DNA of 64,000 nucleotides from Microbotryum violaceum (taxonomy: Eukaryota): the NCBI GenBank assembly GCA_001244265.2, contig CDLV01000014.1:310001-374000 (forward strand), given 5' to 3'. Made by a program: the position numbers and the translations under genes. Below the pieces are notes generated by a model. It had not been told where the DNA came from, ran no database searches, and saw only the letters and a program-made list of their open reading frames with translations. Positions 24,907 to 35,300 of this stretch are shown piece after piece; the first letter of the stretch is position 1; each line of letters begins with the position of its first letter.

Positions 24907-27900
24907 ATGTCGCGTGAGGGTGTGCACGTAGCGTACAGGGGCTCGCCCATCTTTGGCAAGCTGGCCCCTGGGTCGCGCAACCTCTCGAGCGTGCCGATGC
25001 AAGCTTCGCATTCTTCCCCGGCGAACCTCACCTCACCTTCCCACGACACATTCAGGTCACCCATACCGCCTTCGCCATCTACGTGGGCCATGGGCGTCCA
25101 TGGCTCTGCGACCTCGTCCTCATCGCCCGCTTCGTCATTCCGATGCGACGCCGGATTTTCTTCGCCTTACGCGAGCTCGTACTCCACCGTCGCGTCCTCT
25201 CCCATGACAAAGTCCTCCTCCCTACAATTCTCGGCGGAGAGGCACGGAAGTTCAACGTCAAGCTCGCCGAGCTATGACATGATGTTGCAGGACCAACAAC
25301 ATACTCGGCCCGAGCTGCAACGTCGACTCACGGCTCCGGCCGTCCACTACGCGTCCGACTCGCCATCTCGTAGCGGCAGTCCCGCCGGAGTGGTGCGCCG
25401 TCCTCCGATTCCCAAACTGCGTTTCGACCCAGCGACCGAGGTCAAGCGAGGTGTGGCGAAGCAGAGCGATGATGCCAGTATTTGGCCAAAAGAAATCGAC
25501 GAAGCATTCAGGAATGGTGGGTTGTCAAGCGCTTTGTTCGGGAAATCGCGAGCTGACCTTGTTTCTCGTGAGCCAACAGCCTATTTCAACTTGCCCGAGT
25601 TGGGACGCCGCAAGGTGCTCGTCGACGGCAAGCCTGCGGGTCGCAACGAGCTTATCGCCCTCTACATCCTGGATCGGTGCCACCAAGAGCGCACGCGCAA
25701 GCAGATCTCGAGCCACATTCAAGTCATAAAGAATGCGATCATCGGTAAGCCCGCTAAAGTCGCTTGGGCTTTAAACAGAATTGAGAACAAGGTTCTGACA
25801 TCCCATCCTGCTCAATAGCCCAAGGACAGACCCAGACCTTCGAACCTCAGCGGACAATGCTGACCGACGCCGAGGCACGTTATTGGTTTCCGACGCACCA
25901 GATCCAATGCTTAGATGGATCATCCCCTGAGCCGATGCCTGGCGTTGAATATCAACCCCGAGTTCCACTCTACCCGAACTTCCCCATTTCTGTAGCGGCA
26001 AAGACAATGCGACCTACGGCCATGACGCCGATGATGCCGCAAACCGCCTATCCGATGACCCAGAACAGGCCCATAGCCGGACACCACGCGCCTTACTACC
26101 CTTCTGCCAAGTCGCTGTATGGCCCGATGCCACTCACCCCCACCACGACCCTCACACATGCTATAAGCAACCTTGGCTTACTCTCGGAGCCTTCCCCCGC
26201 GATTCGGTACGCCGAAACAGTGATGCCCGAGTCGCTGTGCTTCTGGGTGTCCAACGGCAAACCTAATGGCACCGAAGTGATGGCGAGACTCGACTCGGCA
26301 GACGCTGCAACCGGTTCGCAAAGCGTCTCCTTCATCGAAAGTTTACCTCCCGCGACAATCAGCTACGACCGCCTCATGAGCATGCACGACAAATACCAAT
26401 GCCCTTTCATACACGCCAAGCTCAACGTGACGATCCCGGACGAGAACTACTCGGGTCGCCACCTGCCAACGAAGTTTCACTCGAGCTATGTGCTGTCATC
26501 AACGCAGGAGCTCGACATATCCGTTGTCACTTCGATGTACATTGCCGGCGAGCTCCAGCGTGTCGAAAAGACGAGCTTGATCGAGCGCGTCTCGGTGGGC
26601 AGCCCCGCTTTGGGCTCCGACGTTTCTTCCCCCGTTTCAGCTGCTTCACCCGAGGTCCGCGATGCGTCGCAGTCGTCACAGAGGAACGCAAATGGCAAGA
26701 TCGAGTACAACGTGCCTTTCGGTGACAAGTTCTGGTCCTGGCTCTTTGCCAAGGAGGCCGAGATCTATGATGACTCGCATCAAATCGTCCCCACGCTCAT
26801 CTTCACCAAGAACAAAGAGGAGCTGGAGTCGTTCGCGAACATCGCGGAGGCGGTACTGGTGGTGCAAGAGTTCTCGGTGCACGACGCAGCAATGGCTTCT
26901 TCGAATGGCGAGGTCCAAAGCGAGGTCGTTCTCGTCGTGGCGCACACCGTTCACCTCCACGATCCCGCTTGGTCCGGCGGACCCTTCTCTGTGCTCTCGA
27001 CGTTGATCAGGAACCAGCCCGGTCCGCTACCTGGCATGCCCGCAGCGATGCCAATGCCGATGCCGATGCCGACGCAGATGCCGATGCCGGTTCCCAGTCC
27101 GGCCGAACGAATGCCACTCGCCATGATACAGAACCTGCCTCGACAGCCTACTCGCACGGGACCTTCTTCATCAAGTTTCGGACGTCGCCGCGGCAACTCT
27201 GTCAATAAGCCGAACCTCTCCCTGCAAATCCCCCCTCTGCCGAACTTTTCGTTTCAGCAGGCCCCGGGCCAAGGGGGAATTACGGCGGCCAAGGGTGGCT
27301 TGCACACACCTCTGATGCAGATCGTCCACACCCCGATGGACCCTCCTCCCTTCATCAGTGGTCCACCGCCTCCTCCCCATGCCCGAGCCCAGCGCAGCTA
27401 TTCGCAGTCTTCCATCTCGCCGTGGGACTGCACATCGCCGGCGTTCGCGGACCCGTACTCGGCCGAGCAAGGCGTGGGCATGCCTTTTTTCGGCGAGCAC
27501 GACGACCATCTCTCGACTTCCGTACAAGGCCATCTCAATAAGGCTCCCACGATGGCGGGGGCGCCCATGTTCCACCAAATGTCGACGATGCACCCCACTT
27601 CTCGCGCGATGATCGACAAGCTCACCGCCGAGGCCTTGGCGGCCGGCACACCGACGATCGAACACTTCCCCGGTATGATCGGCACCCCCATCACTCTACA
27701 TCCGACGATGAACGGAGTCGCGGGGACCAACAACGCCAGGCACCCCGTCAAAGTTGTGGTCTCGTCGACACCGATCGGGTCCCCCCTCATTTCGGCCCAT
27801 ACCCCTGTTCGGACGCCCGCCCTGGCCGTCTCGTCTCCCGCGGAGGAGGCAACGGCACCCAAGTCAGCTTCCAAGGTTTTAGCTTCGCATGAGGAACGCG

Positions 27901-27941
27901 ATTTCTTCTCCGGCCTCTTGGGCGAGTCCCGATATGCGTAA
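24907..27941 (+). CDS. TEA/ATTS-domain transcription factor (Tec1/AbaA family); start approximate
   Basis: Spliced TEA domain IWPKEIDEAFRNAYFNLPELGRRKVLVDGKPAGRNELIALYILDRCHQERTRKQISSHIQVIKN, then a long terminal exon (ORF 25857-27941). Confidence 0.88.
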
Positions 27942-28521
27942 TATAGCGCGGCGCTTCCGTTCTCCACGTCTCCCTCGCAACTCGCTGTCCTCCTTCTCAC
28001 TCAAGCATGATCTCCACTGCCCTACCCTCTTCCATGCATAACGCTCTCTTTGTACGGCTACCTCACGGACACGTGTACCTTCTGTCTTTTGTCCTCCGAT
28101 TCACAGTGTTCACACCCGCAACCATACCATAAAAGTCGGTCTGCTGGGTAGACTCGCGCATATTGGGTTGTCATCATCTTCATCATGTATTCATAACTTT
28201 CTTGATTTTCTCCGTCTTTCTATTTGTTTTGTTGCATCAGTTGCATAAGGACGGTTTTTTATTTATCTTTGAAGAAGCCTTGTGGCTTTTGGGCTTGTGA
28301 AGAGTACCCCGGGGACAAAGTGAAATTTGGTTGTAATACACCGCTTCATCGATCATGTTTACTGTACTTGCAGGACCAGGTGTCAAACAGCATCGAGAGG
28401 AAAGAGACCATGTCAATCAGTATGCGTCCGCCTCGAACACCCAAATCACTTCGGATGCAACTCACCAACTCATTCCTCCGTTTCGCCTTATCCTCCACAT
28501 TGACCTCCCTCTTTCTCCCCT

Positions 28522-29863
28522 TCACAGTCGTCGTACCCCCTCGGGGTCCAAACCCAAATACTCCACGGTGACCAGACGAATAATTAACGCCCATGCTTTG
28601 ATCGTGGGTAGATGAAGGGCGTCGACGTTGTCGAGCATGGTGTGCCATACGGTGGGGAAAGGGACGGAGATCATGTGGACTACGGGGACACCGGCTTCGA
28701 GGAAGGGGATGTGGTCGTCTTCGACTGTTGGAAAGGACCAAACGGTGAGTGCGATATTGTAGGCTCGGGCCCGGGAGTGACTGACCTTTGCCCATAATCC
28801 CGAAAGTCGATCTCGGCATGAAGAAGCTCTTCATCGGGTTCCCTTCCTCCTGCGCCATCGCGACCTTTGTATAGGCTTTCCCCTGATGCCCCGGCCACAA
28901 GATCCCCGCCTGTCCCAACTTGGTCTCGACGTTCGCAAACTCGTCGTACAACCACCCTGTCGGACCATAAAATGTTCGACAGTATGGATTGAGAGCGCCT
29001 AACAGGTCCAAGAGGACGAAATGGGATATCCTTTGCATCTCCGTTCGAGGAACGTTCTCGATCGCCGAGGGTCGTGTGCTCGGTTTGGACCATTGCTTCG
29101 CCAAATGCTTCGCGCCATAAATCGAATCCTCATCCGTCCAATCGACGAAGGCTTCTTCGCCATCGAAGAAGATGATCTGCAACGTCTCGGCTTGGGTTGA
29201 CCGACCCTCTTCCCCACCTTGGGCGAGGATACGTTTCTTGCGTAGCTCCAACCAAGGTGTCAACGACTTTGCGAGGTCCATCAACATCGCGCAAGGCGCC
29301 GCCGAATCCGTTGCTCCAATGAATTGATCCTCTGGGTGGGTGGGGAAGTATTTCGAGTCCAGATGAGCAGCAAAGACGAAGCGCCTGGTCGCTTCGGGGT
29401 CGTGGGTCATGATGAGGTTGTTGAACCTCTTCTCCCCGATCGGTGTCTTGGCAGTGAAACGATCTTGTTCGACGTGCCAACCTAAATCGGTGAAAAAGTC
29501 GACGAGGTAGGTCTGTAAGGTCGTCAAGTTCGTAGATCCGACGGCTCGCGGAACGAGGAGCTTGCTCAACGCCGAGGAAGGGTTGGTGAAATCGAGAATC
29601 TCGTTCAGGTCCGACAGGGTCGAGAAGGCGGAGAGGTGAGAGGTGGAGAGAGGCGCATAGGTGGGATTGCGTTTGAGGACGGAGAACGGTCGTGGGCGGG
29701 GTGGGGAGGAGGATGCAGAGGCCGACAGGACCATGAGCACCAGGAGGATCGTCGTCGTCAGGAGCCAAGATCGAGTGCAAGAGGGGAGTTGCGGTGAGGC
29801 TAGTTGCGATGCACTGAGACCGATTCTATCGTCCCTACTTCGCCGCCGTCCAACGGGAGGCAT
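28522..29863 (-). CDS. Glutaminyl-peptide cyclotransferase (M28 family)
   Basis: AAHLDSKYF, GATDSAAPCAM, IFFDGEEAF..W..DSIYGAKHLA, LLDLLG, and after an intron EDDHIPF..PFPTVWHT..D. N-terminal signal/anchor. Literal stop at 28522 (see finding on the alternative tail). Confidence 0.92.
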
Positions 29864-29902
29864 CGTGTGCGACGGATGTACAATACAGGCGCGTCGGGTA
29901 GG

Positions 29903-29906
<4 letters not shown>

Positions 29907-29938
<32 letters not shown>
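29907..29938. repeat. (AG)n microsatellite
   Basis: About 16 AG units, 44 bp upstream of the glutaminyl cyclase ATG. Confidence 0.95.
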
Positions 29939-29946
<8 letters not shown>

Positions 29947-29990
29947 GGAGACGTGTTGCCTAATAAGTTCGGCGAAACGCGCGCCAAGCA

Positions 29991-32063
29991 AGGACCCCCG
30001 AAAGCCCAGCCGGAGGCGCTTTTTTTTTTTTTGACATTTTGAGGACCCAAAATCCTGGAAATCGTCGAGGCGCATTGCAAAAAATTGACATTTTGGGACG
30101 AAACACACGTTTCGCCCCCGAGGCGCATGTCCAGATTTTGACAACATCCCGTGAGTCGGCCCAATTTTGGCCTACCCTGAGCAACCTTCGGCATGACTTT
30201 GGGCCCGTTCGCCTTCGCTTCGAGACGCGTTTAGCGATGCTCGCGCCTGAACAAGTCACTTAGTACTAGCCATCTTCGGTAATCACATGAGTTAAGTGGC
30301 TGTGAGGGATTAGGCCGATTCGATATTGAAGGGGCGCAGGTTCCGTTCCGCTTCACTTCGGTCCGAGATTGGAGCATAGCACGACAACATCATCCCATGC
30401 AGGCCTACTATTTGAACGATGCCTTCGATTGATTATCGCCGCTCACCAACATGAACATGACGATCGCCGAGCTCCTCGCCTTCGATGTCGCTCCCGCCGA
30501 CGCGTCTCTTCACATCGAGTTGTCCAAAGACGAGCACACCCAGTACTCGACCTTATCATCTACTCGATGCCGTTGAGAAGGCAAACAGCTTCTCACGACC
30601 AATCGTGCGTCTACCAAGCTCAACTATCGAAAATTTGGTCTAAGCTCACGCGTGTTCAGTTCTACACAGCCCACAAACTTGAAACTTCCGCCTCAAGTTG
30701 TCGATGCTCGCGATACCAATTTCTCGCTGAACTGTCCAACCTGATTGCCCATCAAGCTGCTCATAAGTGTAGCCACCTCAAGCTGTTCTACTCAAGGGAG
30801 GCCGATGGAATCGAGCGACCCAACTCGCGGAGAGGCAGGCGTAGGGGTTAGCAATACAGAGGAAGGACGCAGTGTAGCACATTCATGCGTCTTGAAAGGG
30901 CTGGTACAGTCCATGGGACCATCTCGCTGCGAAGACATGGCGGGCACGACAAGGAGCTTTCGCTGGACTAGAGGTGATCAGATGGACCGAGCGCTCACAA
31001 CACACGAGGATCCAGAAGAATGTCTATACTGAGGATGGCCGCATTCAAGTGAGTTGTCGCTGAATTTAGGAGCGAAGGCAACTGGATCTAATGTTTGGAG
31101 AAACAAGCAGACGGAGCACTAGCACAACGCTATCCTCATTTTGGATCGCTTGACGGCGGAGCTGTAACCACTACCACAACATCGAAGATCGGATCTCTGG
31201 TCTGCTTTGGCCTCAAGCGTGGCATGCATTCAATCAGCTGCGATCAAACTGCCTATGGAGAAGAAGTGCTGTTCATTGGAATTGGTACGATGCCTTGAAT
31301 GGCAGTTGAGCTGTGAAGTTCTCGTTTGACACAAGTCTTGTGTCCTACAGTGCGATACATCTACAGCAAAGTGACAACAAACCACTGCAACCAAGATAGG
31401 CTCGCCTCGTTGGTTCTACTCTCAAATGTCGTCGTACAGGAGCTTCGCCTCATCAAGAAAACATGCTATTCCACACACCTCATTGATGGCACTATGCCGT
31501 TCCGCATAATTGATGGTCGACAGGTCATCGAGTCATTAGGCCCGTCAACGACTACATATCGTTCAACCACGGACCTTACCTCATGTTATCCGGACGAGCG
31601 CCTAATCAGCACGAGCGCACATGCCGAGCAAAGGCTTGCCGCCTTCGGAGCGTGCCCGGCCTGCGAGATGCCGCCGGCAGAACCTCTACAAGCCGCACAA
31701 ATGCCACCGCGGAAACAAGGATCTCAACTTCAGCAAAAAGGAAGTCTGACAACGAAGCAGCGAGCCAGCCAGCAAAGCAAGGAAGGCTTGTTTGAAGCCT
31801 GGAGCCACGCGCAACACCAGCCGAAGCGACGCGCGCCGCGAGCCACTTTCGATAGGCCGCCGCGCGCCCGCAAACGCTCGGAACGCGGTTTCGAGGACTT
31901 TTGAGCGATTTTTGGAGCAAGTAGAACACATTTTGATGATATTTCCGAGGCGCATGCGAAATTTTGACATTTTGGGGCCAAAATAGGGTAAAAAAACTTT
32001 GACAAAAAGGCCAAAAAAGGGCGTTTTTCCGCATGCGCCTCTGGCTGGGCTTTCGGGGGTCCT
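29991..32063. mobile_element. Non-autonomous/decayed DNA transposon with 29-bp TIRs and an 8-bp TSD
   Basis: Left TIR AGGACCCCCGAAAGCCCAGCCGGAGGCGC (29991-30019) matches the reverse complement of 32035-32063 at 28/29 positions. GCCAAGCA flanks both ends (29983-29990 and 32064-32071). Subterminal repeats GAGGCGCAT and TTGACATTTTG. Confidence 0.9.
30450..31904 (+). pseudogene. Decayed spliced ORF inside the TIR element, with a SWIM-like CxC-x20-CxH motif
   Basis: GT..AG introns near 30605, 31049 and 31285 join protein-like frames. In-frame TGA stops near 30574 and 31030. CRC..KCSH at 30699-30776. Confidence 0.5.
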
Positions 32064-32312
32064 GCCAAGCAGGCACACGCCTGAGCTCGCCTGAGGGCCT
32101 GAGCAGCACCACGCCTGCACATGCACGCACCCACAGACACGGGCTTTGCCGCATCTTGGCACAAGGGCAATGTGGGGATCGCTACTATTATTAGTACACG
32201 TGAGAGCTACGGCAAGCAAAAGATTCGAGTGAATGACATAAACAAACCCCCGAAAGAAAGAAGCACTGGAAGGACAGTTCAATATCACTTCTATAAGCGT
32301 CACAACCCCCCA

Positions 32313-35300
32313 TCAAGCGACACCGTACTTGGCCTGTGAGGGGGTCATCCCAGCCACAAGTCAGCCACAATCCTGAGCCAACCTTTGCCGAAAAAATTCA
32401 CTCACCCTGATGACCTGATCCACATCCCACACTTTCTTCCCTTTGATCGTTGCACTCTCGACTTTCTTCGGATCCAATTCCCCCCACTTGATTTGCACCG
32501 TCAATTTAGGCACCTTGAACACCGACGACCGATTCAATTTCTCCACCACGCCTTCCAGCAACTTGATCTTGGACATCATTTCCGATCCATGGATCAATGA
32601 GATCATACGAGCGACGTCGCCGTCGGACATGATCGTCGAGAAACGACCGGCCTTTTTCTTGCCTCCTGTTTGACCGGGCGCCGACATGTCCGTGTTGGTC
32701 GGGTCGGCGACGGCCTTGCCTTTGCCTTTGGCGGCCATCCCGTTTGTCGGAGGTGGCAACGGTTTGGATTCCCAACGGAAGGGATCAATGCCGACATGCG
32801 CGTCTGCCAAGGAAACGTCAGACACGGTCAGAAGCAGGTTCCGCGTAGCCATGAAACATCGCCGCAACTGACCATTCAAGAACTGAATCCTCATCGACTC
32901 AAACATTTTCTCCTTCGGCACGCCAAGTCTCGTCTCCCAACAAGGCCCCTTGACGATCGGAATCAACGTCTTGATCTCCTTCTTGTTTCTCGCCTTGCCC
33001 TTCTTCTCCCTCCTCTCCAACCTCCTCCTCGTAGCCAACAGCTCAAGATCCTTCGCTCCCCCATCCGCATCCATCCTCAATTCATCCTCACTCCCCGCTC
33101 CGTCCAAATACTCCACATCATCATCCCCGGCCAACCAGTCGTCCGAAAGGTCGTCATCCGAGTTATCCTCTCCCGAAAGCTCGTCCCCCGATCGAAGATC
33201 CTCCGCATCCTCATCCTCTTCCTCCCAATCGGCCTCGGAATCATACTCATAATTGATCAACGCTCGATCGACTTCGAGAGGTGCACGAGGACGGATCGTG
33301 CGACTCCATATGGTCCACGTCCCGACGTAGCCCGGGCGAACATCGTCGTGGAACTTCAAGAGCTTGACGGGGACTTTACGACGATCTTGAAGAATCTTTA
33401 AAAGGGGTGCGGGATCGCCACCCGTCACTGCGCATTGCGTGACTTCTTCCGCGATCGAGCGGACCGAAACAGTCGTCTTGGGCAGAGCAGAATGGTAGGT
33501 CGGGATGTGTCGCGCAGGAACTCTCTTGGTCAGGTCCGCTAAAGCCGTCTGTTTGGACAAAGTCGGCTCAGAGTCGATGCGGACTTCGGGGAGTTTGCCC
33601 TTGGTAGCGAGACGGTACTTCTTGAAGCGGTTGATGGGGGCGACTTCGACACCGGCTCGAGCGTCGTTGAAGTCCTTGAAGACAAGGTTGAAATCCGACT
33701 CTTTGACGCGTTGACCCGCGCCTATTTACTCGAACACACTCGTCAGCGCCGGTTTCGAAAGGCAAGAACACAGTCGCGCTTGCTCACTGTTGGACGACGC
33801 ATCATTCGACGCAGCAGGCGAAGGCGTCTTCTTGACAACGAAAGCGTTCATGAATCCCGCAGACTTGGACAAACTCTGCAAGGCATCGACCGGGCTCGAG
33901 TTCAGTATTCACCCCGGACCTGGGGCTAAGTGCGGTCGACCGCCTCACCTTGCGCTTCTTCTCCTCCGCGGCCAACTTTTCGGCCTTCTTGGCATCCTTG
34001 ACGGCTTTCTCCGCTGCCTTTTCCGCGGCCTGAACCATACAGCCAAAGTACAAATCAGCATCCATCCACCCACAACCCACCCCACGTCCTGTCAGACCAA
34101 AAAAAGACTCACGACCTTCTCCCTCGCAGCCTTCTTTTCCGCCTTCTCGTTCTCCTCCTCCTCCTTCTTCCTCCGCTTCTCCTCAATCTCCCTCAATTGC
34201 TCGTCCGTCTTGACCTTTTTCTTCTTGGTCGCGCTCCCACTCCCACTCGCTTCCGAGTTCGCCATCGATGAAGAAGCCACCGCTACAGTCTTGGCGACCT
34301 TCCCCTTGGGTTCCTTGACCGTACTCGTCCCGACTTCCCCAGTCTTGCCTGCCGACCCATTACCCTCGAGCAGCAAGCCCTTCCTCTCTTCCTCCCCCAA
34401 CGCTTGCCAAATTCTCAAACAGGCCTTGCCCATCTCGAACCTCTGATTCCTCCTCTTCGTCAACCTCGCCCGCAACTCGGTCGGTAGTAAACTCATACTG
34501 TTGAGTTCCCAGAACCAGAGTTGTAAACCTTGAGGAACGACGAGGGGGTTAGAGGATCCAATTATGTCGGAAGAAATCTTGTCTTGGTCCATCTTGTGCT
34601 CGTCCTCCTGCCCACCGCCACTAACAAGGAGACTGCCGACGTCCAAGCCATGATTGACCCTTTCCGCCAATTCGGCAACAAGGCTCTTGATGGGTCCCAA
34701 CGGAATCCTTTCAAGCACGGACTTGCTCTCCACTTTACGATCATCGTCATCGTCATCTTCGTCGTCGAGGTCGGCTTGAATCGCTAAACCGAGGATCGCG
34801 CCGTCGAGGGCTTTGACGAGCTCGTCGCGGATGAATTTGGATAAGGCGATGAGGGTCTTGGTTCTAGGGGGTTCGAGACGCGCAGGAGGATGAGCGACTT
34901 GATGGGGAGTTGTCTTAGTCAGGTGGGATTACTGACGATTCATTGATCATTGCCGCAAATACCGCATGATGTTGCTGCGGGTACTCGGTCAATTCAAACT
35001 CGGGGTCCGAATGGAACTTTTGCGCAAACTCGGTCGTGAACGCCGTCCAGCCTGAATGTCAAAGATGTCAAAAACACGCGTCGGGTCGGGTCAGTCTCGC
35101 GTATCGAAGCAGAAAGGAATTGGATTTGGACTGACGTTCGATCGCACTCGGGATTTTGGTCGCTTCGAATGGTTTTTGCTTGACGACGAACTTGCCCTTG
35201 ACCCAATCGACGAGGGAAGGTTCGAGAGGGGCAGGGGAGGCGGCGGGGCCGGTGGTGTTGAGTTTGGGGTTGGTCGTAGTCGACTTGGCCACAGAAGATG

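What the first reader, a model, noticed from the sequence alone, without database searches (positions are those of the whole stretch)
29983..32071. Unannotated 2.07-kb TIR transposon with perfect 8-bp TSD and no recognisable DDE transposase
Seen: 29-bp TIRs (28/29 identical) starting AGGACCCCCG, and an exact GCCAAGCA duplication on both sides, inserted about 130 bp upstream of the glutaminyl cyclase ATG. Known: 8-bp TSDs occur in hAT, P, Merlin and Zisupton/KDZ elements and in some MULEs. Inference: the AGG terminus is atypical for hAT, so this may be a non-autonomous member of a poorly described fungal family. The well-preserved ends contrast with the decayed interior, suggesting mobilisation in trans.
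Basis: partly seen in the sequence, partly recalled or inferred. Interest (0 to 1): 0.75.

Follow-up and report, generated by a model that had tools for sequence, protein, structure and literature searches.

The report
Internally deleted P-like fungal transposon
This is a real 2-kb jumping gene in an anther-smut fungus: a gutted copy of a roughly 6-kb P-element-like transposon that has lost its own enzyme, and a related strain still carries the empty, uninterrupted site.

Summary
There is a 2,073-bp element (29991-32063) with 29-bp inverted ends (28/29) and an exact 8-bp duplication GCCAAGCA. It lies 128 bp upstream of an M28-peptidase (glutaminyl-cyclase-like) ORF on the minus strand.

It is a mobile family. 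In Logan contigs of 4 public runs, summed depth jumps at the element's bins. One run (X14) joins 29982 to 32064 with 8 shared letters, a precise empty site. In X14 other contigs break exactly at 29991 and 32063 with unlike flanks.

The interior is not random. It is the 5' end (residues 1-98) and 3' end (1330-1662) of a ~1,650-aa gene found whole in Microbotryum silenes-dioicae protein models. About 1,231 codons are deleted at 30555|30561. One model (P0018) reads through the element's left end, which ties the ends to the long gene.

The long protein carries a Ulp1 (C48) protease domain. Its RNase-H-type core is nearest to P element/THAP9 transposases, by ESM Atlas and weak fold matches but not by Pfam.

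An 8-bp duplication and ~30-bp inverted ends fit the P superfamily.

This scan already noted a P-type/Ulp1 element with AGG ends elsewhere in this genome (e1-7176048). Sequence identity with it was not shown.

No intact autonomous copy was seen.

The parts
29983..29990 (.). Left copy of the 8-bp target-site duplication GCCAAGCA
   Evidence: The empty-site contig in run X14 joins 29982 to 32064 with 8 letters that fit either side (table 5).
29991..30019 (+). Left 29-bp terminal inverted repeat (starts AGG)
   Evidence: (I1, 28/29). In X14, 9 contigs break exactly at 29991 with unlike flanks (table 7). The P0018 protein model reads through this end.
30013..30146 (+). Left subterminal repeats: three direct units (a GAGGCGCAT-type word followed by a TTGACATTTTG-type word) starting near 30013, 30067 and 30120, spaced 54 and 53 bp. 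Inferred transposase binding sites.
   Evidence: (D1, D3, D4). At 30144-30146 most other copies read TTT, which restores the third unit (table 3). The binding role is inference.
30193..30555 (+). 5' remnant of the family's long gene (P0016 residues 1-98), with two in-exon stops and a probable intron
   Evidence: tblastn, (E 4e-25).
30555..30561 (+). Main internal-deletion junction. About 1,231 codons (P0016 residues 99-1329, at least 3.7 kb) are missing, including the Ulp1 domain and the whole catalytic core.
   Evidence: In other copies, loose ends behind 30555 and before 30561 continue into the longer form: contigs carry 1,028 and 1,424 unlike letters before 30561 (tables 7 and 8). The letters after 30555 translate to P0016/P0001 residues just past residue 98 (my reading).
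30557..31904 (+). 3' remnant of the long gene (P0016 residues 1330-1662) in shifting frames. It ends at the same C-terminus and stop codon (31902-31904) as the full-length models.
   Evidence: E 1e-117; 195-aa open frame 31317-31901, 84% identical to P0001.
31096..31111 (+). Second, small deletion relative to other copies (about 10 codons of P0016, residues 1457-1466, are missing)
   Evidence: Loose ends at 31096 and 31111 in X17, X9 and X11 (table 7). Gap between the aligned pieces.
31945..32043 (+). Right subterminal region: one direct unit (31947-31975) and one inverted unit (32032-32041), able to form a hairpin
   Evidence: (I2, 33 nt, 73%), and the DNA fold (-25.2 kcal/mol, z -2.9, 2 of 200 shuffles as good).
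32035..32063 (-). Right 29-bp terminal inverted repeat
   Evidence: In X14, 4 contigs break exactly at 32063 with unlike flanks (table 7).
32064..32071 (.). Right copy of the 8-bp target-site duplication
28346..29863 (-). Context: M28-peptidase (glutaminyl-cyclase-like) ORF whose start lies 128 bp from the insertion
29907..29951 (.). Context: (AG)22.5 microsatellite between the gene start and the insertion

Best explanation
The segment 29991-32063 is a non-autonomous, internally deleted copy of a cut-and-paste (class II) transposon family of anther-smut fungi (Microbotryum).

The full-length form is about 6 kb and encodes a single protein of roughly 1,650 aa. That protein has an N-terminal Ulp1/SUMO-protease-like (C48) domain and a central RNase-H-type transposase core of the P element/THAP9 kind.

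This copy keeps three things: both 29-bp inverted ends, the subterminal repeat units that most likely bind the transposase, and the first 98 and last 333 codons of the gene. The rest was lost in one large deletion at 30555|30561.

Because it has no catalytic domain, it must have been moved by transposase made elsewhere. That enzyme pairs the ends, cuts the element out and inserts it at cuts staggered by 8 bp, which repair turns into the GCCAAGCA duplication.

The insertion here happened after the split from the lineage sampled in run X14, which keeps the empty site.

Shown:
- the ends, the duplication and the empty site;
- the multi-copy family;
- homology of the interior to both ends of the long gene;
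- the link between the end sequence and the long gene;
- the Ulp1 domain.

Inferred:
- P-superfamily membership;
- the binding role of the subterminal repeats;
- supply of the enzyme in trans, and which copy supplies it.
For: (1) Anatomy. Inverted ends match 28/29 and the 8-bp duplication is exact.

(2) Empty site. Run X14 has one contig, at single-copy depth 28.5, that joins 29982 to 32064. It skips 2,081 bases, with 8 letters fitting either side. Its flanks differ from the window at 24 of 895 and 35 of 937 letters. Run X9 (3 of 1,018 and 6 of 963 letters differ) has contigs running from each flank into each end (29000-30017 and 32038-33000). Run X17 shows the right junction only (all).

(3) Multi-copy. 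Summed contig depth in the bins from 29938 to 32081, against the flanks, is 30,392-108,138 vs 229 (X17), 646-2,673 vs 21 (X9), 195-2,285 vs 28.5 (X14) and 57-577 vs 5 (X11). In X14, 9 contigs break at 29991 and 4 break at 32063, with flank agreement of only 0.47 and 0.57.

(4) The deleted form itself has moved. In X14, where this site is empty, a contig (30516-30910) bridges the 30555|30561 junction (table 8). P0005 carries the same junction peptide.

(5) Partner gene. The 195-aa frame found 15 relatives. P0001 then led to four Microbotryum silenes-dioicae models of 1,517-1,765 aa at 66-93% identity. tblastn maps the element to P0016 residues 1-98 and 1330-1662.

(6) Ends tied to the gene. P0018 residues 72-83 match the translation of both element ends.

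(7) Domains. Peptidase_C48 is above its cut-off in 4 of 4 long models and in 7 of 9 family members. The nearest solved relative by sequence is the Ulp1-like protease 6dg4 (E 7e-6 with the profile).

(8) P kind.
- ESM Atlas: the nearest named clusters to P0023 residues 1-580 carry PF21787/PF21788/PF21789/PF12017, with cosine 0.95 and structural TM 0.66-0.73 over 443-502 aligned residues. The same holds for P0016 residues 560-1045 at cosine 0.92.
- Foldseek: of 350,542 PDB chains, the top two are the Drosophila P transposase entries 6p5a and 6pe2 (E 5.5e-3, probability 0.84).
- VIA-align: model residues 110-324 on 6pe2 residues 201-338, Z 6.9, rmsd 3.4, 109 aligned. This is the best transposase in the list.
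- The motif order D .. D .. D-x-x-H .. E fits the P signature string described in PMC8230255 (passages).

(9) P elements have 31-bp inverted ends, 8-bp duplications, subterminal binding sites and internally deleted non-autonomous copies (PMC7776569, passages).
Against: - No Pfam P-family model, and no other transposase model, matches any of the 9 family proteins, even at E up to 10.
- Sequence and profile searches of the PDB find only Ulp1-type proteases.
- My AlphaFold model is poor: mean pLDDT 35.6, pTM 0.26, from 9 sequences.
- No Foldseek match reaches E 0.001, and the TM-scores to 6p5a are 0.14 and 0.23.
- In VIA-align a glucokinase ranks first (Z 8.0), and the P transposase (Z 6.5-6.9) is tied within 1 Z unit with ISCth4 transposase (Z 6.2). 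The tool warns that Z under 8 may mean only a common arrangement.
- Atlas scores are leads, not tests.
- No THAP domain was detected.
- The AGG...CCT termini differ from the Drosophila P termini (the latter recalled, not tested).
- The 8-bp duplication was measured for this one copy only.
- No intact autonomous copy was seen. In 4 of 4 closest long models the stretch that should hold the third catalytic motif is read in the +1 frame.
- The X14 lineage is about 3-4% diverged, so the presence/absence difference may lie between close species rather than within one.
Confidence: 0.78

Rival explanations
1. It is the same deletion-derivative transposon, but the family's transposase is not of the P superfamily. 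It would belong to another RNase-H-type superfamily that also makes 8-bp duplications (hAT, some MULEs, Zisupton/KDZ), or to a separate fungal lineage of superfamily rank.
For: - No P-family Pfam model hits 0 of 9 members.
- The fold model is of low confidence.
- The VIA-align Z for the P transposase is tied with ISCth4 and lies below a glucokinase.
- The [C/D](2)H motif is not exclusive to P (my recall of Yuan and Wessler 2011, which I did not read).
- The AGG termini and the lack of a THAP hit are atypical.
Against: - hAT, MULE and KDZ Pfam models also hit 0 of 9 members, and 0 of 30 frames of the element.
- In the first Atlas call every listed row that carries a family carries a P/THAP9 family, and the tool's tally is 10 of 10 best family-bearing hits sharing one family or clan. 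The second call agrees.
- The two best Foldseek matches in the whole PDB are the P transposase entries. Hermes (hAT), Transib and RAG rank 14th or lower.
Confidence: 0.15
2. The presence/absence difference is not an insertion. The element is old at this site and was removed precisely in the X14 lineage, by excision or by recombination between the two 8-bp repeats.
For: The joint in X14 lies between two 8-bp direct repeats, which could in principle mediate a deletion. X14 is the more diverged lineage.
Against: - Removal would have to restore exactly one copy of the 8-bp word. Cut-and-paste excision usually leaves a footprint (established knowledge of class II elements).
- An 8-bp repeat is a very short substrate for recombination.
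- The family is multi-copy with many near-identical pieces: 689 of 1,683 contigs laid in X17 are 99% or more alike. That fits recent insertion activity.
Confidence: 0.04
3. The element is an inert relic. The inverted ends and flanking 8-mers are remains of an ancient event, and the family is no longer mobile, so 'mobilisation in trans' is only history.
For: - This copy has stops, frame changes and two deletions.
- All 4 closest long models read the third catalytic motif region out of frame.
- No intact master copy was seen.
Against: - The ends match 28/29 and the duplication is exact.
- The site is empty in a lineage only about 3-4% diverged.
- Many contigs are 99% or more alike.
- The TCG-mutation index is only mildly raised: 0.98 against 0.58 and 0.79 in the flanks.

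This rival concerns present activity only. It does not dispute what the element is.
Confidence: 0.35

Closest known systems
Drosophila P element and its internally deleted derivatives (for example KP-type copies)
   Same: - 8-bp target duplication.
- Inverted ends of about 30 bp (31 there, 29 here).
- Subterminal repeats or binding sites.
- Non-autonomous copies made by internal deletion and moved in trans (PMC7776569, passages).
- The family protein's core gives its best PDB matches to 6p5a/6pe2.
- It shows the motif order D..D..D-x-x-H..E (PMC8230255, passages).
   Different: - Fungal host.
- Partner protein of about 1,650 aa against 751 aa.
- Added N-terminal Ulp1 (C48) domain.
- No THAP or P-family Pfam hit.
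- The ends start AGG, whereas the P ends start differently (recalled).
- The element's last base is T, whereas the P structure has GTP contacting a terminal G (PMC7776569, passage). The end chemistry may therefore differ.
Zebrafish Pdre2/THAP9 elements and the BuT5 MITE-P element pair of the Drosophila repleta group
   Same: P-superfamily families in which short or deleted copies share ends with a coding partner and carry duplications of 8 bp (BuT5: 8-9 bp) (PMC7776569 and PMC3698922, passages).
   Different: BuT5's interior is unrelated to its partner, whereas here the interior is the partner's own coding ends. Their inverted ends are much shorter (13 bp and 3 bp). They are animal hosts.
The P-type transposon with a Ulp1 protease and AGG termini noted earlier in this scan on another piece of the same genome (e1-7176048)
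   Same: Same genome, same reading (P-like transposase plus Ulp1 domain), same unusual AGG terminus.
   Different: That one is a decayed copy of about 6.4 kb and this is a 2.07-kb deletion derivative. Look-ups by sequence with this element, P0016 and P0021 found no shared stretch. It is therefore not shown that they belong to the same subfamily.
Ac/Ds and other hAT elements
   Same: 8-bp duplication, and the autonomous/deletion-derivative logic (PMC12730594, passage: hAT usually 8 bp).
   Different: No hAT dimerisation domain or other hAT model in 0 of 9 family proteins and 0 of 30 frames. Hermes ranks only 42nd in Foldseek.
Ulp1-carrying transposases of other superfamilies (Mutator-like elements of plants, hydra and lancelet; Ginger1)
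   Same: A C48/Ulp1 protease domain joined to a DNA transposase (PMC2836005, passages).
   Different: The superfamily differs, the duplication length differs, and Ulp1 is C-terminal in Ginger1 but N-terminal here. This 2-kb copy has lost the domain.

Membership tests
Class II cut-and-paste TIR transposon, non-autonomous deletion derivative | Terminal inverted repeats flanked by a target-site duplication | tested here: met
   Ends match 28/29 and the 8-bp duplication is exact.
Class II cut-and-paste TIR transposon, non-autonomous deletion derivative | Insertion polymorphism: an empty site with a single copy of the duplicated word | tested here: met
   X14 contig joins 29982 to 32064, with 8 letters fitting both sides, at depth 28.5. 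X9 is filled at both junctions.
Class II cut-and-paste TIR transposon, non-autonomous deletion derivative | Other copies with the same ends at other loci | tested here: met
   In X14, 9 contigs break at 29991 and 4 at 32063, with unlike flanks. Depth jumps at the element's bins in 4 of 4 runs. The individual flanks and their duplications could not be read.
Class II cut-and-paste TIR transposon, non-autonomous deletion derivative | Interior derived from a longer coding partner that shares the ends; no catalytic domain of its own | tested here: met
   tblastn maps the element to P0016 residues 1-98 and 1330-1662. P0018 reads through the end. 0 of 30 frames has a Pfam hit.
P superfamily (P element/THAP9) | Target-site duplication of 7-9 bp, typically 8 | tested here: met
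   8 bp for this copy. Family values are from PMC7776569 and PMC3698922 (passages). Other copies were not measured.
P superfamily (P element/THAP9) | Transposase matching the P-family sequence models (PF12017, PF21787, PF21788, PF21789) | tested here: not met
   0 of 9 family proteins match at E up to 10. The same holds for 4 of 4 long models at E 0.01.
P superfamily (P element/THAP9) | RNase-H-like catalytic fold closest to the P transposase, split by a helical GTP-binding insertion domain | tested here: inconclusive
   - Atlas: TM 0.66-0.73 to THAP9/P clusters.
- Foldseek: top two are 6p5a/6pe2, but E is 5.5e-3 and TM 0.14-0.23.
- VIA-align: Z 6.9 on the N-terminal RNase H half only, tied with other RNase-H folds.
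- The model's pLDDT is 35.6.
- The insertion domain is not resolved.
P superfamily (P element/THAP9) | Signature string D .. D .. [C/D](2)H .. E | tested here: met
   Motifs sit at P0023 residues 138/139, 261, 326-329 and about 504-507. D261, D326 and H329 are invariant in 9 of 9 sequences. The string is taken from PMC8230255 (passages). The E motif is in frame only in P0021 and P0023. Residue equivalence was judged by eye and from the VIA range.
P superfamily (P element/THAP9) | N-terminal THAP zinc-finger DNA-binding domain | tested here: not met
   No THAP (PF05485) hit in 0 of 9 proteins. A Cys/His-rich stretch lies upstream of the core but was not classified.
hAT superfamily | hAT dimerisation domain (PF05699) and a hAT-type transposase | tested here: not met
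   0 of 9 proteins and 0 of 30 frames. The 8-bp duplication alone would fit.
Zisupton/KDZ | KDZ-type transposase; 8-bp duplication (PMC12730594, passage) | tested here: not met
   The duplication length fits, but no KDZ-related Pfam family is among the hits of 9 proteins. Every listed Atlas row that carries a family carries a P/THAP9 family.
Mutator-like elements (MULE) | MULE transposase (PF10551/PF00872) and duplications usually of 9-11 bp | tested here: not met
   No MULE model in 0 of 9 proteins. The duplication is 8 bp. The typical MULE range is recalled, apart from the 9-bp Mu value seen in the abstract listing.
MITE | Short (a few hundred bp), homogeneous, no coding remnant | tested here: not met
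   The element is 2,073 bp with clear coding remnants. A derivative of about 285 bp (joint 30053/30054 to 31842) exists in X17 and X14, at single-copy depth.

The most novel reading that the evidence does not exclude
The family is a still-mobile, fungus-specific offshoot of the P superfamily. It is too divergent for the Pfam P-family models tried here, it has swapped the THAP domain for another DNA-binding module, and it has gained an N-terminal SUMO-type protease. Its different end chemistry (AGG...CCT termini) may no longer use the terminal-G/GTP contact of the Drosophila enzyme.

In addition, every sizeable copy seen so far, 'full-length' ones included, is defective. The whole family would then be propagated by a rare or unseen master copy.
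Probability: 0.25. Interest if true: 0.6.

Novelty: new variant of a known kind. Interest (0 to 1): 0.4.

Why it matters
A survey of fungal cut-and-paste transposons lists P elements in fungi only as single occurrences, with Repbase entries only from Pucciniales and Allomyces. It counts Microbotryomycetes among the lineages that lost transposon types (PMC5751038, passages). The large Microbotryum transposon study lumps such elements as 'ClassII:TIR' in its text passages and in the supplementary tables held (PMC10502011).

This copy supplies three useful things:
- exact ends;
- a verified 8-bp duplication with its empty site;
- a direct tie to a Ulp1-carrying gene of about 1,650 aa.

That is what is needed to annotate the family, to count insertions between anther-smut lineages, and to set up a transposition assay.

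The biology itself (deletion derivative, mobilisation in trans, insertion in a promoter-proximal spacer) is textbook.

The insertion lies 128 bp from the start of an M28 peptidase gene, so it could alter that gene's expression. This was not tested.

Tried and rejected
- Whole genome: none is held. Copy census and duplication lengths of other copies could not be done.
- TIR word in JGI metagenome contigs: 0 matches.
- Relatives of the family profile in the same collection: 597 pattern matches, none confirmed.
- Earlier-findings look-ups by sequence with the left end, the whole element, P0016 and P0021: nothing.
- Pfam on 30 frames of the element: nothing above cut-off.
- Pfam on the 15 phmmer hits: nothing above cut-off.
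- P0015 (845 aa, 31% identity, low-complexity repeats) was dropped as a chance hit.
- A hAT reading of the 31100-31420 frames (a resemblance to the hAT dimerisation motif, seen by eye) was rejected. Pfam gives no hit, and the stretch aligns to the partner's C-terminal region instead.
- Sequence and profile searches of the PDB for a transposase relative: only Ulp1/SENP/XopD-type proteases.
- AlphaFold2 on 9 sequences gave a poor model.
- The bacterial promoter/terminator scan is irrelevant for a fungus and was ignored.
- X11 has no contig over 32082-32215 and shows no junction, so nothing is concluded for that run.
- Literature: searches for P superfamily + Ulp1 + transposon + fungi and for P element + superfamily + Basidiomycota + DNA transposons + THAP9 listed no paper describing a P-type/Ulp1 element in fungi. 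Only listings were seen, plus passages of the papers I opened. Repbase reports are not in the library.
Full report
**1. The observation**

A 29-nt inverted repeat (29991-30019 and 32035-32063, 28 of 29 complementary) starts AGGACCCCCG, and the word GCCAAGCA directly abuts both ends.

The first 21 nt of the end, allowing up to 3 mismatches, occur nowhere else in the 64 kb. 100 shuffles gave 0.00 expected.

The 8-mer itself is not rare: 7 in the window against 2.71 expected. What matters is that it sits exactly at both ends.

The element is 2,073 bp long.

The neighbouring ORF (28346-29863, minus strand) hits Peptidase_M28 (E 4.5e-15). Its ATG is 128 bp from the element. An (AG)22.5 microsatellite lies between them.

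None of the 30 stop-free frames of 40 aa or more in the element reaches a Pfam cut-off. 'No recognisable transposase' is therefore correct for this copy.

**2. It is a mobile family, and the empty site exists**

No genome is held for this window, so I used public runs. 22 of 23 listed runs hold part of a 5-kb stretch around the element. I laid Logan contigs of four of them on 29000-33000.

*Depth.* In all four runs the summed contig depth jumps in the bins that hold the element:
- X17: 30,392-108,138 against 229 in the flanks.
- X9: 646-2,673 against 21.
- X14: 195-2,285 against 28.5.
- X11: 57-577 against 5.

The tool warns that this is no copy number. It does show a repeat whose borders coincide with the inverted ends.

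*Borders.* In X14, 9 contigs stop matching exactly at 29991 and 4 exactly at 32063. Their flanks agree with one another only 0.47 and 0.57. These are other copies at other places.

*Empty site.* X14 also has one contig, at single-copy depth (28.5), that joins 29982 directly to 32064. It skips 2,081 bases (2,073 + 8), and 8 letters fit either side. That is the empty site with a single GCCAAGCA.

*How far apart the lineages are.* X14's flanks differ from the window at 24 of 895 and 35 of 937 letters, so it is a lineage about 3-4% apart. X9 differs at 3 of 1,018 and 6 of 963 letters and is filled at both junctions (contigs 29000-30017 and 32038-33000). X17 shows the right junction only. X11 shows neither junction, and nothing is concluded from it.

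*Other derivatives.* Further joints (30053/30054 to 31842 in X17 and X14, 30709 to 31598, and others) show more deletion derivatives, including one of about 285 bp.

**3. What the interior is**

The longest open frame (31317-31901, 195 aa) was searched against 1.84 billion representative proteins. There were 15 hits at E 0.001 or better, 7 of them at 1e-30 or better. None has a Pfam family above its cut-off.

The best hit, P0001 (490 aa, 84% identity), is the open frame of a less damaged copy. Searching for longer proteins with it gave four models of 1,517-1,765 aa, named by their source as Microbotryum silenes-dioicae, at 66-93% identity. A fifth hit, a Copia polyprotein, shares only 8% of the query.

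tblastn places the element on P0016 as follows:
- 30193-30555 = residues 1-98.
- 30557-31901 = residues 1330-1662.
- The element ends at the same C-terminus and stop codon.

The element is thus the two ends of a gene of about 1,650 codons, joined at 30555|30561, with about 1,231 codons (at least 3.7 kb) gone.

The read data agree. Other copies continue past 30555, and before 30561, into unlike DNA (1,028 and 1,424 letters in two contigs). The letters following 30555 translate into the residues that follow residue 98 in P0001 and P0016 (my reading).

This copy also has:
- two stops inside aligned coding sequence;
- several frame changes;
- a second small deletion at 31096|31111.

Some alignment gaps look like introns, for example 31290-31375 with GT..AG borders (seen). 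The TCG-to-TTG index is only mildly raised: 0.98 against 0.58 and 0.79 in the flanks.

**4. The ends belong to the long gene**

The P0018 model starts upstream of its element and reads through the left end. Its residues 72-83 match the translation of both ends of our element, and the following residues match the subterminal repeats. The 29-bp end, the subterminal repeats and the ~1,650-aa gene are therefore one element. Its length should be about 6 kb (2,073 bp + at least 3.7 kb).

In X14, where this site is empty, a contig (30516-30910) bridges the same 30555|30561 junction. P0005 carries the same junction peptide. The deleted form, which has no catalytic domain, therefore sits at more than one locus. 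That is the evidence for mobilisation in trans.

No other piece of the family lies in this window.

**5. What kind of transposase**

*Sequence level.* Pfam finds only Peptidase_C48 (Ulp1) in the long models: 4 of 4, E 1.4e-5 to 7.5e-5, above the cut-off. It is found in 7 of 9 family members and no transposase family in any, at E up to 10. Sequence and profile searches of the PDB find only Ulp1/SENP/XopD-type proteases.

*Family range.* All relatives found by the word-based search are Microbotryum proteins, falling into three or more subfamilies at 42-54% identity.

*ESM Atlas.* The nearest named clusters to the core (P0023 residues 1-580) are P transposase/THAP9 clusters (PF21787, PF21788, PF21789, PF12017). 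Cosine is 0.95 and structural TM is 0.66-0.73 over 443-502 aligned residues. Unnamed Basidiomycota clusters rank first. P0016 residues 560-1045 gives the same picture at cosine 0.92, including a Basidiomycota cluster in which 53% of members carry PF21787.

*My own model.* The AlphaFold model (9 sequences) is poor: pLDDT 35.6, pTM 0.26. Even so:
- Foldseek's two best matches among 350,542 PDB chains are the Drosophila P transposase complexes 6p5a and 6pe2 (E 5.5e-3 and 1.1e-2, probability 0.84 and 0.63). TM is only 0.14-0.23 and nothing reaches E 0.001.
- VIA-align puts model residues 110-324 on 6pe2 residues 201-338 (Z 6.9, rmsd 3.4, 109 aligned). This ranks behind a glucokinase (Z 8.0) and is tied with ISCth4 transposase (Z 6.2) and Prp8 RNase H domains.

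The RNase-H-like fold is therefore supported. P is the best transposase match, but on structure alone the case is weak.

*Motifs.* The motif order is a D in a beta strand, a second D at a strand end, D-x-x-H, then E in a helix. D261, D326 and H329 of P0023 are invariant in 9 of 9 sequences. This fits the P signature string described in PMC8230255 (passages).

*Element anatomy.* It also fits. P elements have 31-bp inverted ends, 8-bp duplications, subterminal binding sites and internally deleted copies of 0.5-2.8 kb. Zebrafish P-like elements show the same pattern (PMC7776569, passages).

I put P-superfamily membership at about 0.8. It is not proven.

**6. The subterminal repeats**

The left end has three direct units, a GAGGCGCAT-type word followed by a TTGACATTTTG-type word. 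They start near 30013, 30067 and 30120. At 30144-30146 most other copies restore the third unit.

The right end has one inverted unit 22 nt from the tip and one direct unit 107 nt in. Together they can form a hairpin.

By analogy with other class II elements these are the likely transposase binding sites. This is inference.

**7. Caveat on the 'autonomous' partner**

In all four closest long models the stretch that should hold the end of the insertion domain and the E motif is compatible, codon by codon, with a +1-frame reading of the DNA that encodes the in-frame sequence of P0021. On one diagonal there are runs of 22, 18-22 (11 in P0017), 13 and 10 residues. A reversed control gave none, and the +2 frame gave none.

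Either these copies share real frameshifts, and so are themselves defective and were spread in trans, or the gene models are wrong. I cannot tell which without their DNA. No demonstrably intact source of transposase has therefore been seen.

**8. Comparison and novelty**

The element works like a Ds or KP-type deletion derivative. The family is best filed as a divergent P-superfamily lineage with an added Ulp1 domain.

Ulp1 domains are known in Mutator-like and Ginger1 transposases (PMC2836005, passages).

A fungal survey lists P elements only as single occurrences, with Repbase entries from Pucciniales and Allomyces (PMC5751038, passages).

The Microbotryum transposon study does not split 'ClassII:TIR' further, either in the passages or in the supplementary tables held.

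My two literature searches listed no paper on a P/Ulp1 element in fungi. Repbase reports are not searchable here.

An earlier agent of this scan reached the same reading (P-type, Ulp1, AGG termini) on another piece of this genome (e1-7176048). I reached the family independently through the protein searches, but that note told me what to look for. Sequence identity between the two elements could not be shown.

**9. Verdict**

This is a real, well-bounded, recently inserted non-autonomous transposon. The mechanism is ordinary. The family is a modestly novel variant (a fungal P-like transposase with Ulp1 that the Pfam P-family models tried here do not detect).

Interest 0.4.

Noticed in passing
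Proteins P0016-P0019 (relatives; no window coordinates): In 4 of 4 closest full-length models, about 100 residues that should include the third catalytic (E) motif are compatible with a +1-frame reading of the sequence that P0021 has in frame. Runs of up to 22 residues lie on one diagonal, and a reversed control gave none. This is either shared frameshifts in 'full-length' copies or a gene-model artefact.
   Followed up: partly
window 31701-31889 and 32005-32064 versus protein P0020: The first 77 residues of a Copia-type polyprotein model of M. silenes-dioicae (PF00665/PF07727) match the right end of this element at 95% and 85%. In that genome a copy of the family abuts or sits inside a Copia element, and the gene model runs through the junction.
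   Followed up: no
window 30053/30054 joined to 31842 (runs X17 and X14): A derivative of about 285 bp that keeps little more than both ends exists at single-copy depth in two runs. Other joints (30709 to 31598, 31372 to 31504, 31718 to 31855) show a spectrum of internal deletions.
   Followed up: no
window 29907-29951: An (AG)22.5 microsatellite lies between the M28 gene start and the insertion. Contigs of all runs break there, which hides the left junction in X17.
   Followed up: no
window 24907-25815 (+) and 25857-27938 (+): An ORF with a TEA/ATTS DNA-binding domain (E 9e-22) is followed by a 694-aa ORF without any Pfam family. They may be exons of one gene.
   Followed up: no
window 31945-32043: The right subterminal region can fold back on itself as single-stranded DNA (-25.2 kcal/mol, z -2.9, 2 of 200 shuffles as good). 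The left end has direct units only, so the two ends are asymmetric, as described for P elements (PMC7776569, passage).
   Followed up: partly
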